Source: Octopus sinensis
Taxonomy: Eukaryota
Assembly (NCBI RefSeq): GCF_006345805.1
Contig: NC_042999.1
Span: 19,592,001-19,656,000 of the forward strand
Direction of reading: 5' to 3'
DNA length: 64,000 bases
This document shows, piece by piece, positions 4,621-8,306 of the stretch; position 1 is the stretch's first letter, and every line of letters begins with the position of its first letter. A program made the position numbers and the translations under genes. The notes beneath the pieces were generated by a model, which did no database searches, was not told the origin of the DNA, and saw nothing but the letters and a program-made list of their open reading frames with translations.

Positions 4621-5519
4621 TGTGATGTATGATTAAACACAAAATTCTTCAAAGTGACTGAATGCACACATATTTTGTTAGGCTGACACACTGAGCAGAA
4701 AAAGAACTTCCCTTTCATTTTTCCAGAACATTCATGATATTAATTCTCCTCTCTAAGAACTGATTTATGTAAACTTGGAGTGCTTTTCTGTAACTTCTTC
4801 AGTATATATTAATCTAATTACATTAGCATACATTTGTTCAAAAATATTTGTCCAAAAAGTGCTGGTTGTTTTATGCATCTTCAAATATTTTTTTTCATTA
4901 CTTCAGGTTAAAGTATTTTATTTCTTTCTTAAATCTTTATATTGTTTCAGAAGAAGCATGGCAGTAAATAAAACACAATAAAAAAATATTTCGAAAAAAA
5001 AAAATAAATGAAATAAAATCAATATTTTAAAAAGAACTGATGAAAAATATTCCTTTTTATTACGTGCTGAATTGTCAAAGAATGCTGCAACTAGGGCATC
5101 TGATTTGATGTCTGTTCAATAACCTAACTACAGCAAATATTTGAGTTGCCTACAGAAATTTCATGTACTTTTGAAAAGTTTATTCCAAATCTCTATGGAT
5201 TTATTTGCGAAATATAAAACATAAAAAACGGCATAATATATAAAACACCATGTGTCACAAATAATTTTTCCATTTTCTTATATTTCAGCGTAAAGATTTC
5301 ATTGACAAAATTAGCATAAAACGTTCAATGCTTTTGAGACGCAACATGAACATAAGTGTAGTGTGCCATTTTATTACAGTTTCATTGAGTATCTTTGAGA
5401 AGTTACGTCTTTGTTTCTATGCTAATTATGAAGAAATCTGGTAAATTATATCATGTACCTAATCTAGTGAGTTCTGGAGAATTTTAAATCTATTCTTTTC
5501 TTATACAAATTAATGACAT

Positions 5520-6120
5520 GCATAGCCCCACTGTTTGAGCCAGCCTACGTATGCATACCTTCCCTTCTTGGGACACAAAACTCTACTTGTGAAGACGTGT
5601 TGAGGCAAGTGAGGATCAGAATCGAAATCGATCAATGGAAATTGCGGATGTGTTACCAGTGCCGGTGGCATGTCGAAACTCTACTTGTGAAGACCCGTTG
5701 AGGCAAGTGAGGATCAGAATCGAAATCGATCAATGGAAATCGATCAATGGAAATTGAAGATGTGTTACCAGTGCTGGTGGCATGTAAGAGAACTTTCCGT
5801 TTCACGACCGTTGCCAGCACCGCCCCGTTTCGTGTCCGTTGCCAGCCTCGCCTGGCCCTCGTGCCGGTGGCACATAAAAAGCACCATCCATTCGTGGCCG
5901 TTTGCCAGCTCTGTCTGGCACCAGTGCGGGTGGCACGTAAAAAGCACCCACTACACTCACGGAGTGGTTGGCGTTAGGAAGGGCATCCAGCCGTAGAAAC
6001 ACTGCCAGATTTGACTGGGCCTGATGAAGCCTTCTGGCTTCACAGACCCCAGTAGAACCGTCCAACCCATGCTAGCATGGAAAACGGACGCTAAACGACG
6101 ATGATGATGATGATGATGAT
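5520..6120 (+). mobile_element. Family B 3' end with internal duplication
   Basis: As above; segment 5578-5672 is duplicated at about 5677-5785. Confidence 0.8.
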
Positions 6121-6327
6121 GGTATGGCTGTGGCGTATAGAAGTTTGCATAGTAGCAACATGGTTTGGTATTGTTTTCAGTTCCTTTGTGTGGTATCTTT
6201 TTGAAATGTTTATAACCATAGCTCTTGAGTAACCAATGGTTTGTGAGTGGAATTCATTGGCAAAAACTATGCAGAAGCCTGGTAGAAGTATGTGTATGTA
6301 TCTGTGTGAGTGAATATGTATGTGTAC

Positions 6328-6379
<52 letters not shown>

Positions 6380-6597
6380 TATATGTATATATAAGAGATA
6401 ATGGTGTCATTGAGACCCAAAGGTGTCAGGTAATGCTGAATAAGTGCTATAGACAGACTATAGTTAAGTTCCAGATTCAGTAATATTGCGAATAAAGGTT
6501 CAACATTGGTTCTATGTCAGCATGTGTATATAAGAATTTTTGTGTAATAAGATAAAAAACTAAGACTGTATAGATATTACTATGACTTAATTTTTCC

Positions 6598-6647
6598 TCT
6601 CTGATGAAGGGATATTATGAATTAATATCCTAGAAACAGCTGTAAGA
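6598..6647 (+). ncRNA. Minimal type I hammerhead ribozyme motif
   Basis: TCT-CTGATGA-A-GGGATATTA tgaat TAATATCCT-A-GAAA-CAGCTG-TA-AGA: canonical core boxes, 9-bp stem II, palindromic helix III. Confidence 0.7.
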
Positions 6648-6712
6648 CCTATCTATAAATGCTCTAATATCTATACAGCCTTGGTTTTTTATCTTATTAT
6701 GCAAAAAATTCT

Positions 6713-6769
<57 letters not shown>

Positions 6770-7061
6770 ATATGATGGACAGTCCCTTTGAAGACGACAC
6801 ATGAGCATTCAGCTTTTGCTGATCAAACTGGACAAATGATTTGTTTATAGTGATCAAAGCTTGTGCCACACTTTAGCTCAGTCTCTTTATCAAATCGACG
6901 TTGCCTGAACAGGTTCACATGCGTCAGGTGTCAAAGTGATTGCAGAAAAAAATGAGATGAACTATTTTGCTCAAGAACACAGCACAACACCTGGTCTAAG
7001 AATTGAACTCACGATTGCTAGATAGTGAGGGCAACACCCTAAACACTAGGCCATGTGCCCT

Positions 7062-7600
7062 CATCATTATGATGATGATGATGATCATCATCATCATCAT
7101 CATCATCATCATTATCATCATCATCATCATCATCATCATTGTTTAACATCCGCTTTCCATGCTGGCATGAGTTAGACGGTTTGACTGGGGACTGGCAAAC
7201 CAGGAGGCTGCACCAGGCTCCAATCTGATCTGGCAAGGTTTCTACAACTGAATGCTTTTTCTAACAGTAACTACTCTGAGAATGTAGTGGGTGCTTTTTA
7301 TGTGCCACCAGCACAGGGGCCAGTCAGGTGGCACTGGCATCAACCATGCTCGAATGGTGTTTTTTATGTGCCACCAGCATGGGAGTCAGTTAGGTGGTAC
7401 TGGCATCATCCACGCTTGAATGCTGCTTTTTACATGCAACTAGCACAGGTGCTAGTCAAGTGGCCCTGGCATCAGCCACTACTACGATTTCACTTGACTC
7501 AACAGGTTTTCTCATGTACAGCATATTGCCCGATGATCAAATAGTTCTTTTAAACAGGCCAGTTATGTGACACAGACATCAGCCATGGTCACAATCTCAT
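7062..7600 (-). mobile_element. Family B 3' end
   Basis: (CAT)n followed by reverse family B sequence. Confidence 0.8.
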
Positions 7601-7664
7601 TTTGATCCGACCTTGTATACTTAAAAAACAAAGAAAAAATATCCACCAGTATTTTTCTTTTCTA

Positions 7665-7872
7665 TTCTTAGCACAAAGCCCAAAATTTTAGGCGGGGGGG
7701 GGGCAGCCAATTAGATCAACCCCAGTATGCAACTGGTGCTTAATTTATCGACCCTGAAAGGATAAAAGGCAAAGTCAACCTCAGCAGAATTTGAACTCAG
7801 AACATAAAAACGGACGAAATACTGTTAAGCATTTCGCCTAGCGTGCTAACATTTCTGTTAGCTTGCTGCCTC
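7665..7872 (-). mobile_element. tRNA-derived SINE, family C
   Basis: Reverse of head GGCRAGCTRGCAGAAA..TTAGCACG...GAGTTCAAATTC (B box) plus core GACTTTGCCTTTCATCCTTTC.GGGTCGATAAATTAAGTACC, which resembles the Nin/Deu-type SINE domain (from memory). Confidence 0.8.
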
Positions 7873-8306
7873 ATCCAGCAGTATTATTGTAAGATATTGC
7901 TAGGATCAAAACTGAGAAGAACATTGAACTGAGAAAAGAAAGTAGCAAACTTTGGTGTTTATTTTTTATACTAGGTACAACTTTTTTTTACTATTATTAT
8001 CGTATTCATCTTTCTTGTGTGTTAATTTTTTCTAATGAAATCCGATAAATCAATATCAGATTATTAATTCAGTGTTTGAAGTAATTTTTATTTATTTATA
8101 TTTTATTTTATTTATTTGAATTTTTGTATTTTTTTATTTATGATAAAAAGTTAAATTCAAAGAAACCACTGAATCAAACTCCTCTTTCTCTCTCCCTTTC
8201 TCTCTCTCCTCTCTCTCTCTCTCTCTGACTCTCTTTATGCTTGTGTAGTTCTGTGTGTGTGTGTGTGTGTGTGTGATCATAAGAAAGGTAGTGGCGTTGT
8301 TAATAG

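What the first reader, a model, noticed from the sequence alone, without database searches (positions are those of the whole stretch)
6400..6715. Microsatellite-embedded mini-element with a near-canonical hammerhead ribozyme
Seen: a ~300-bp unique segment bounded on both sides by (TA)n contains CUGAUGA, a 9-bp stem II, GAAA, palindromic CAGCUG and a GUA cleavage triplet (cut after 6644), with a 3-bp stem I. The pair closing stem II is A-A rather than the usual G-C. Known: Penelope-like elements and retrozymes carry minimal type I hammerheads with palindromic helix III that cleave as dimers. Inference: a non-autonomous Penelope- or retrozyme-type element.
Basis: partly seen in the sequence, partly recalled or inferred. 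Interest (0 to 1): 0.75.

Follow-up and report, generated by a model that had tools for sequence, protein, structure and literature searches.

The report
Dead Penelope-element fragment with hammerhead remnant
This 320-base stretch is a broken-off tail piece of a Penelope-like jumping gene lodged in a TA repeat, and its hammerhead-ribozyme look is inherited from that gene family, although this particular copy would likely cut RNA poorly or not at all.

Summary
The letters are as described. CTGATGA is at 6601-6607, a 9-bp stem II follows, then GAAA, the palindrome ACAGCTGT, and GTA with the cut after 6644. Stem I has 3 bp and A/A sits next to the core. (TA)n lies on both sides. The segment is not unique: it belongs to a repeat with thousands of copies in a 2.7-Gb genome.

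It is not a 300-bp mobile mini-element. It is one 5'-truncated insertion of a Hydra-clade Penelope-like element (PLE). An inverted copy of the element's last ~190 nt (6390-6579) is joined head-to-head to a direct 3'-UTR piece (6570-6722). Other copies have other junctions.

The motif is this PLE lineage's 3'-UTR dimer-type hammerhead. Sister families keep CTGATGA, a stem II and GAAACAGCTGTAAGAC, the architecture published for Hydra-clade hammerheads.

The window's own family reads CCGATGA at the source: 548 of 719 copies, against TG 88 and CA 64. The window's T is therefore likely a CpG-decay change in a dead copy. That copy has also lost 10 nt of stem I and has no partner copy.

This is a new member of a known kind. 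The C4 lineage is a modest curiosity.

The parts
6330..6393 (.). (AT)n microsatellite, 5' part of the target site
   Evidence: Tandem Repeats Finder reports period 2 with 32.5 copies. The sequence was read.
6390..6579 (-). Inverted, 5'-truncated copy of the last ~190 nt of PLE family E. It ends at the element's TATA priming site, 15 nt before the longest 3' end.
   Evidence: blastn against a 773-nt 3' reference cut from locus L055 gives 93.2% identity over 191 nt on the minus strand.
6570..6722 (+). Direct, 5'-truncated piece of the same PLE's 3' UTR (about -314 to -149 from its 3' end). It ends at an internal TTCTTATATA site that merges into (TA)n. Positions 6570-6579 fit both pieces.
   Evidence: blastn gives 85.6% identity over 167 nt on the plus strand.
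6598..6647 (+). Hammerhead-like motif. Stem I is 6598-6600 with 6645-6647. CUGAUGA is at 6601-6607. A/A is at 6608 and 6632. Stem II is 6609-6617 with 6623-6631. GAAA is at 6633-6636. The palindrome ACAGCUGU is at 6636-6643. A17 is at 6644.
   Evidence: for the letters. Descriptor scan. Homologous motifs in sister PLE families.
6602..6602 (+). The T that makes CTGATGA. The family source has C here, within a CpG.
   Evidence: Genome-wide exact pattern counts: 719 copies in all, CG 548, TG 88, CA 64, other 19.
6597..6600 (+). Site of a 10-nt deletion relative to the family, which has CCTCTCACACCGTCTC before the box. The deletion cuts stem I from 4 bp to 3 bp.
   Evidence: Alignment of 27 copies. 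Loose ends before 6598 in four runs read CCTCTCACACCG (table 7).
6537..6707 (.). Foldback made by the inverted and direct pieces. The arms are 6537-6579 and 6665-6707, and the motif lies in the 85-nt loop.
   Evidence: the repeat finder pair I1: 43 nt, 91% complementary. The RNA fold is -70.5 kcal/mol with z = -11.4.
6713..6765 (.). (TA)n followed by (TG)n, the 3' part of the target microsatellite
   Evidence: (TG)18.5 at 6729-6765.

Best explanation
Window 6390-6722 is a single, 5'-truncated insertion of a Hydra-clade Penelope-like retrotransposon into a (TA)n microsatellite, and the hammerhead-like motif at 6598-6647 is the remnant of that lineage's 3'-UTR dimer-type hammerhead, which in this copy would likely be inactive or nearly so.

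Shown:
- The stretch consists of an inverted copy of the element's 3' end joined head-to-head to a direct copy of an upstream 3'-UTR piece.
- Other genomic copies have other junctions.
- The parent family encodes a protein with the Hydra-clade motifs.
- Sister families in the same genome carry CTGATGA, a stem II and GAAACAGCTGTAAGAC at the same place.
- The window's own family reads CCGATGA in most copies.

Inferred:
- The insertion arose by target-primed reverse transcription. It was primed on the TA repeat at UAUA sites of the RNA, with a second, inverted cDNA, as described for PLEs.
- The T at 6602 arose by CpG deamination after insertion.
- In intact elements of the U4 families the motif cleaves as a dimer through the 8-nt palindrome.
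- U4->C abolishes or cripples catalysis. This rests on classical hammerhead mutagenesis, which I recalled and did not read here.
For: Repeat family and insertion structure:
- The stretch is a repeat: 4014 first-look candidates, 40 scored, 84 matches.
- All 27 copies examined are an inverted segment plus a direct segment of one 3' reference. Fourteen have distinct breakpoints. Thirteen are symmetric at the stem II apex.
- Direct repeats of 11-16 bp flank the whole unit in 7 of 27 copies (L003, L007, L018, L019, L021, L025, L029). The other 20 sit in plain TA repeats or show none.
- 5' truncation varies between copies.
- Three alternative 3' ends occur, two near the terminus differing by a ~14-nt tail and one internal.

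PLE identity:
- The ORF C-terminus in L114 and L116 has CxCX5C, VIY...YIG, and CxxC..E..N..CxH.
- Pfam GIY-YIG matches at E=0.0042 and 17.8 bits, below the cutoff of 22.6.
- Database relatives P0001 and P0002 (~715 aa) show DKT, YRDDG, CxCX5C and GIY-YIG, and P0002 shows RWK.
- These are the features listed for the Hydra clade in Craig et al. 2021 section 11. The ORFs are collinear by eye with that paper's Hydra alignment.
- Protein-atlas neighbours carry HTH_animal, GIY-YIG and RVT_1 (leads only).

Motif homology:
- Ten of 20 more distant PLE loci, fetched by EN homology alone, hold the right-half motif downstream of the EN. Seven read CTGATGA (L118, L122, L124, L128, L133, L134, L136) and one reads CCGATGA (L130).
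- Genome-wide, 830 sites have CTGATGA plus the exact right half and 792 have CCGATGA plus it. The reversed-pattern control gives 0.
- In the 'T' family, the first 100 of 183 sites are CTG 73, CCG 16, CCA 9 and CTA 2, so U4 is a source state there.
- The published Hydra-clade hammerheads commonly read ctgatgaT-stem II-Tgaa-acag-NN-ctgt-a (File S2 of Craig et al.). That is the same layout as here.

CpG decay in the window's family:
- Box counts are CG 548, TG 88, CA 64, other 19, out of 719.
- A nearby control CpG in the unbiased sample of 30 loci shows about the same loss.
- CTG copies occur on several stem II variants that also occur with CCG.

Dimer: RNAcofold pairs the palindrome between two copies. 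The dimer is -32.1 kcal/mol against -21.0 for two monomers.
Against: - No cleavage or RNA-end data could be obtained.
- Pfam does not recognise an RT in the degenerate ORFs or in P0001-P0004. A PDB profile search found no polymerase. RT identity therefore rests on motifs read by eye, the published description and atlas neighbours.
- TG (88) is somewhat more frequent than CA (64) at the box. A small CTG-source subfamily inside family E is therefore not excluded.
- Thirteen of 27 copies share the symmetric junction. They could be a replicating foldback derivative rather than 13 independent events.
- Ten of 20 distant loci showed no motif at up to 3 substitutions.
- The window copy does have every canonical core letter, and A/A next to the core is also the commonest state in the U4 families. 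Weak dimer cleavage by this very copy therefore cannot be ruled out.
Confidence: 0.8

Rival explanations
1. One reading: a small non-autonomous Penelope- or retrozyme-type element of about 300 bp. It would replicate as a unit, and its hammerhead would be functional and cleave as a dimer.
For: - All canonical core letters are present in the window copy.
- Helix III is palindromic and is predicted to pair between two RNAs.
- The sequence is PLE-derived and sits in (TA)n.
- Thirteen of 27 copies share a symmetric foldback form that might replicate as a unit.
Against: - The window's junction (-205/-314) is shared by none of the other 26 copies.
- The family source reads CCGATGA.
- There is no tandem or second motif in the window.
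- Stem I has been cut to 3 bp by a private 10-nt deletion.
- The copy is 86-93% identical to the family reference, so it is old.
Confidence: 0.08
2. A chance look-alike: a foldback SINE or MITE whose hairpin happens to be flanked by CTGATGA and GAAA, unrelated to any ribozyme.
For: - Rfam models do not score it.
- The box is not the family consensus.
- GAAACAGCTGTAAGAC also forms one arm of the long foldback.
- A loose descriptor hits 16 of 200 shuffled windows.
Against: - The same box, stem II and right half recur in PLE families with different flanks and different stem II sequences.
- The layout matches the published Hydra-clade hammerheads.
- No shuffle out of 200 gives a hit with stem II of 8 bp or more.
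- Rfam also misses the canonical-core sister motif.
Confidence: 0.03
3. The motif is kept in this PLE lineage for something other than cleavage. One possibility is RNA dimerisation through the 8-nt palindrome. Another is recognition of the stem II hairpin by the reverse transcriptase. In that case U4->C would cost nothing, and the window copy would be a dead example of such a signal.
For: - C4 families are about as numerous as U4 families: 792 against 830 sites with the exact right half.
- C4 is found in several families that have diverged in EN protein (81%, 79% and 61% identity to the query) and in stem II, yet they keep the right half.
- Craig et al. note that PLE clades without hammerheads proliferate well.
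Against: - Copies of a transposon keep the source's letters without selection, so conservation among copies is weak evidence.
- Only single copies of the diverged C4 families were examined.
- There is no experimental handle here.
Confidence: 0.09

Closest known systems
Hydra clade of Penelope-like elements (Craig, Yushenova, Rodriguez & Arkhipova 2021, PMC8557442). I read passages, section 11, and supplementary File S1 and S2 sheets.
   Same: - The ORF is short, about 700 aa, with a C-terminal GIY-YIG.
- It carries the CxCX5C linker, DKT, and CxxC/CxH around the conserved E and N.
- Insertion is into (TA)n.
- 5' truncation, attached inverted 5'-truncated copies and an optional short tail are all present.
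- A hammerhead lies near the 3' end. It often has a non-Watson-Crick pair next to the core and helix III reading acag-NN-ctgt-a.
   Different: - The listed octopus family Hydra-1_Obim has a different hammerhead sequence, so the families seen here are further, apparently undescribed ones.
- Helix III here has no loop at all; it is a perfect 8-nt palindrome.
- Stem II is longer, at 7-11 bp.
- The window's family and its near relatives read C at core position 4.
- The 3' UTR is about 1.3 kb. The motif is at L090 9363 and the ORF stop at 8271, so the element is probably longer than most listed families.
Minimal PLE hammerheads that act as dimers (Cervera & de la Pena 2014, PMC4209133). I read passages.
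   Same: Type I topology. Long helix II, short helix I (3-4 bp here, 4-5 bp there). An extra or unpaired nucleotide after position 9. A palindromic helix III that cannot form within one molecule.
   Different: That paper stresses a conserved G10.1-C11.1 pair. Here the position next to the core is A/A, U-A or C/A, and the G-C pair comes one step further in. The window's family also has U4->C.
Animal non-LTR retrozymes (Cervera & de la Pena 2020, PMC7229834; Li, Clavereau & Pollet 2026 preprint). I saw the search listing only for the first and the abstract and outline for the second.
   Same: PLE-related sequence carrying a type I hammerhead.
   Different: Retrozymes are tandem arrays of short units, each with a hammerhead. 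Here there is one motif, no tandem copy, and the junction is private to this copy.

Membership tests
Hammerhead ribozyme (type I, dimer-type minimal form) | Core box C3-U4-G5-A6-N7-G8-A9 | tested here: inconclusive
   The window copy has CTGATGA. The family source has CCGATGA: 548 of 719 copies. Sister families have CTGATGA.
Hammerhead ribozyme (type I, dimer-type minimal form) | G12-A13-A14 followed by A15.1, with U16.1-H17 at the cleavage site | tested here: met
   GAAA at 6633-6636, U at 6643 and A at 6644. These letters are nearly invariant across families.
Hammerhead ribozyme (type I, dimer-type minimal form) | Helix II closed next to the core by a Watson-Crick pair (usually G10.1-C11.1) | tested here: not met
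   A6608 faces A6632. The 'T' sister family has U-A there. Published Hydra-clade motifs often have U/U.
Hammerhead ribozyme (type I, dimer-type minimal form) | Helix I pairing the flanks | tested here: inconclusive
   3 bp in the window and 4 bp (GUCU/AGAC) in the family. The published clade range is 3-7 bp.
Hammerhead ribozyme (type I, dimer-type minimal form) | Helix III, formed here between two molecules by a palindrome | tested here: met
   The 8-nt palindrome at 6636-6643. Cofold predicts the intermolecular helix. This is a prediction only.
Hammerhead ribozyme (type I, dimer-type minimal form) | Self-cleavage | not testable with these tools
   No raw-read RNA run was on offer. Contigs cannot show RNA ends.
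Hammerhead ribozyme (type I, dimer-type minimal form) | Match to the Rfam hammerhead covariance models | tested here: not met
   No match. The control with a canonical-core sister copy is also negative, so the test is insensitive to this form.
Penelope-like element, Hydra clade | Single ORF with RT and C-terminal GIY-YIG, a CxCX5C linker, no CCHH, and CxxC/CxH around E and N | tested here: met
   Seen in family copies L114 and L116 and in relatives P0001 and P0002, not in the window. Pfam GIY-YIG is below its cutoff. RT was not recognised by Pfam.
Penelope-like element, Hydra clade | Insertion into (TA)n, variable 5' truncation, an attached inverted 5'-truncated copy, and an optional short tail | tested here: met
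   compared with the passages read.
Penelope-like element, Hydra clade | RT or EN coding sequence at this locus | tested here: not met
   tblastn of five PLE protein queries against the window gave no hit at E<=1e-3. The window holds only a 3' fragment.
Non-LTR retrozyme | Tandem repeats of a short unit, each with a hammerhead | tested here: not met
   Only microsatellites were found in 5500-7800. The whole window holds one descriptor hit.

The most novel reading that the evidence does not exclude
A whole branch of Hydra-clade Penelope elements has spread to hundreds or thousands of copies with cytosine at hammerhead core position 4. It keeps stem II, GAAA, the 8-nt palindrome and the cleavage triplet. 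Either C4 is tolerated in this dimeric hammerhead, which would make it a natural core variant, or the motif's real job in PLEs is RNA dimerisation or template recognition rather than cleavage.
Probability: 0.18. Interest if true: 0.6.

Novelty: new member of a known kind. Interest (0 to 1): 0.3.

Why it matters
For this window it matters little. It is a dead transposon fragment, and the ribozyme look is explained.

Three side results may be useful.
(1) Rfam's hammerhead models miss this dimer-type form even when the core is canonical. Genome annotations therefore undercount such motifs. About 1,600 sites in this genome match the strict pattern.
(2) Hydra-clade PLE families other than the one listed for an octopus are abundant here. 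There were 12,522 first-look candidates for the EN C-terminus.
(3) U4 and C4 families are about equally numerous. That is a natural experiment on whether hammerhead catalysis is needed for PLE spread, a question that Craig et al. 2021 leave open.

Tried and rejected
- SINE reading. My first reading was a SINE-like retroposon with a chance hammerhead look-alike. I abandoned it when the copies turned out to have different junctions, the parent turned out to be a PLE, and sister families turned out to keep the motif.
- MITE or DNA-transposon reading. Rejected because direct repeats of 11-16 bp flank the whole unit and truncation is one-sided.
- Rfam searches. Nothing relevant. Hits to miRNA and snoRNA families come from hairpins and microsatellites.
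- Upstream of one family copy. L090 showed no long RT ORF. The 110-aa ORF gave no Pfam hit.
- RT identification. Pfam on the degenerate RT-like ORFs and on P0001-P0004 found no RT. A PDB profile search found no polymerase.
- RNA evidence. No RNA holder was listed. Logan contigs from four runs were laid on 6150-6950. They show only that the repeat is very abundant in the runs of four organism labels, and they give no RNA ends.
- Earlier findings of this scan. None for this genome.
- Literature on core mutations. The effect of U4->C is therefore recalled, not read.
- Search for 'hammerhead', 'Penelope' and 'octopus'. Five papers held the terms and 4 were listed. None describes this motif.
- Host species. 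I did not determine it.

Full report
**1. The observation**

The letters are there.
- TCT 6598-6600 can pair with AGA 6645-6647.
- CTGATGA is at 6601-6607 and A at 6608.
- GGGATATTA 6609-6617 pairs with TAATATCCT 6623-6631. That is 9 bp, the outermost a G-U, around a 5-nt loop.
- A is at 6632 and GAAA at 6633-6636.
- (AT)32 lies at 6330-6393. TA then TG repeats lie at 6713-6765.

I wrote a loose descriptor: box, stem II of at least 4 bp, GAAA, a short helix III region, U-H, and stem I of at least 3 bp. It finds this one site in the 64-kb window. It finds at least one site in 16 of 200 dinucleotide shuffles. With stem II of at least 8 bp it finds a site in 0 of 200 shuffles.

Rfam gives no hammerhead, either at gathering score or at E<=10 on 6350-6760. 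It also misses a sister copy with a fully canonical core. The negative result is therefore uninformative for this loop-less form.

It puts the motif in the loop of a long foldback.

**2. Not unique, and not a mini-element**

In its own 2.7-Gb genome the 316-nt stretch has 4014 first-look candidates. Forty were scored and gave 84 matches, the full-length ones at 79-89% identity.

I aligned 27 copies and at first read them as a SINE-like family. The left half of the central region differs from copy to copy.

Copies picked only by the box-side 18-mer show the motif sitting in a longer element, which I call E. Its leftward extent varies, as in 5' truncation.

In 8 of 20 such copies the sequence continues 3' into the reverse complement of the window's 'left half'. 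The 3' end comes in two forms that differ by a ~14-nt tail.

I mapped the 27 copies onto a 773-nt 3' reference cut from L055.
- Every copy is an inverted segment running from about -15 (or -1 to -11 with the tail) inward, joined head-to-head to a direct segment that ends at -149.
- Fourteen copies have distinct breakpoints. The window's are -205 and -314.
- Thirteen copies are symmetric at -257 to -263, the apex of stem II.

This set was chosen by similarity to the window copy, so the common outline is partly a selection effect.

Direct repeats of 11-16 bp flank the whole unit in 7 of 27 copies, for example 15 bp in L025. The rest lie in plain (TA)n or show none.

In the window, 6390-6579 is the inverted piece (93.2% identity) and 6570-6722 the direct piece (85.6%). 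There is no tandem copy. No PLE coding sequence lies in the window.

**3. The parent is a Hydra-clade Penelope-like element**

About 1.1 kb upstream of the motif in L090 an ORF ends. That ORF has 12,522 first-look candidates in the genome.

Longer open versions in L114 and L116 read CxCX5C, then VIY...YIG, then CxxC-E-N-CxH. Pfam GIY-YIG scores E=0.0042, below its cutoff.

Upstream frames in L116 carry FDI..YY....MGS.., and FLD..Y.KPN.. motifs. Their database relatives are P0001-P0004, of 671-723 aa; P0001 and P0002, which I read, carry DKT, YRDDG, CxCX5C and GIY-YIG, and P0002 carries RWK.

These are the features that Craig et al. 2021 list for their Hydra clade. That clade has short elements, (TA)n targets, no CCHH, CxCX5C, DKT, and CxxC/CxH around E and N, with hammerheads 'readily detected' (section 11). 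The ORFs are collinear by eye with the Hydra alignment in that paper's supplement.

Pfam does not see an RT, and neither does a PDB profile search. Atlas neighbours carry HTH_animal, GIY-YIG and RVT_1 (leads only).

[quoted passage not shown] Frangieh et al. 2024 tie the tail to two adjacent internal start sites of reverse transcription.

**4. The motif is the lineage's hammerhead**

I fetched 20 more distant PLE loci by EN homology alone, at 53-66% identity to the 110-aa query.
- Ten hold the right half (AGAAACAGCTGTAAGAC, up to 3 substitutions) downstream on the EN strand.
- Seven of them read CTGATGA.
- One reads CCGATGA.
- The others are degenerate, and one match (L127) is doubtful.
- Ten of the 20 loci show nothing.

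Flanks and stem II differ between these families while the box and the right half persist.

Genome-wide, CTGATGA-N16-46-right half occurs 830 times and CCGATGA-N16-46-right half 792 times. The controls give 0.

The commonest U4 form has a 7-bp stem II, GGGAUAU with AUAUCCC, flanked by A and A. A 'T' family has U-A next to the core and a stem of about 11 pairs with one A/C mismatch.

In that 'T' family the first 100 of 183 sites read CTG 73, CCG 16, CCA 9 and CTA 2. CTG is therefore a source state there and not a decay product.

File S2 of Craig et al. shows that Hydra-clade hammerheads commonly read ctgatgaT-stem II-Tgaa. That puts a non-Watson-Crick pair next to the core. They have helix III acag-NN-ctgt followed by a. 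The motif here is the same, with no loop in helix III.

Cofolding two copies pairs the 8-nt palindrome between molecules.

**5. Why this copy looks canonical**

In family E the 18-mer TCNNATGAAGGGATATTA occurs 719 times: CG 548, TG 88, CA 64 and other 19. A control CpG five bases upstream has decayed to a similar extent in the unbiased sample of 30 loci.

CTG copies occur on the same stem II variants as CCG copies.

The source RNA therefore read CCGAUGA. The window's T at 6602 is best explained as CpG deamination after insertion; this step is inferred.

The window copy has also lost 10 nt just 5' of the box, which cuts stem I from 4 to 3 bp. It has lost 3 nt after 6648 as well.

There is no second motif nearby, the copy is 86-93% identical to the family reference, and stem I is weak. 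I therefore predict no meaningful self-cleavage. Weak cleavage in an artificial dimer cannot be excluded. PLE minimal hammerheads are feeble in vitro even when canonical.

**6. Comparison and novelty**

This is a known kind: a Hydra-clade PLE with a dimer-type hammerhead. One such family, Hydra-1_Obim, is listed for an octopus. It is 2507 bp long, targets (TA)n, and has a different hammerhead sequence. The families seen here appear to be further members.

What is mildly new is a group of families that carries C at core position 4 and A/A next to the core, yet is as numerous as the U4 families.

My search for 'hammerhead', 'Penelope' and 'octopus' found five papers with all three terms, of which 4 were listed. 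None describes this motif. I could not see Repbase.

The effect of U4->C on catalysis is recalled from classical mutagenesis.

**7. Verdict**

The window holds a dead PLE tail fragment. Its canonical box is likely an accident of CpG decay.

Interest is 0.3.

Noticed in passing
L011 about 2973-2999; L018 3' flank; L026 about 899-925; genome-wide: A second, classical minimal hammerhead repeat. It reads CTGATGA-A-GAGC-NNN-GCTC-GAAA-CG-TT, with a G-C closing pair, a 4-bp stem II, a 4-bp stem I and a CG palindrome. The exact pattern occurs 711 times in the genome and the control gives 0. It probably belongs to another PLE clade.
   Followed up: partly
G000, many loci: Within this PLE lineage, hammerhead motifs with C at core position 4 (792) are about as numerous as those with U (830). 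C4 goes mostly with the long AT-rich stem II families.
   Followed up: partly
window 5829-5948 and 7290-7479: Two short tandem arrays of a 63-66-nt unit lie in opposite orientation about 1.4 kb apart, on either side of the finding. Similar sequence occurs in the flanks of L002. It is probably another common repeat of this genome.
   Followed up: no
window 6825-6930: Contigs from four runs pile up here at depths of hundreds to thousands, and many joints skip about 60-67 nt at 6858-6925. This is another high-copy repeat with a length variant.
   Followed up: no
L090 7682-7861 and 8521-8700: A 180-nt inverted duplication, 99% identical, lies at the 5' edge of one family E copy. An internal piece of the element is attached upside down at its 5' end.
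   Followed up: no
runs X14, X16, X17: The family E fragment is present at very high contig depth in runs carrying three other organism labels. The family is therefore shared by related species.
   Followed up: no
window 6100-6122 and 7061-7139: (GAT)n and (TCA)n microsatellites lie near the insertion. The region is rich in simple repeats.
   Followed up: no
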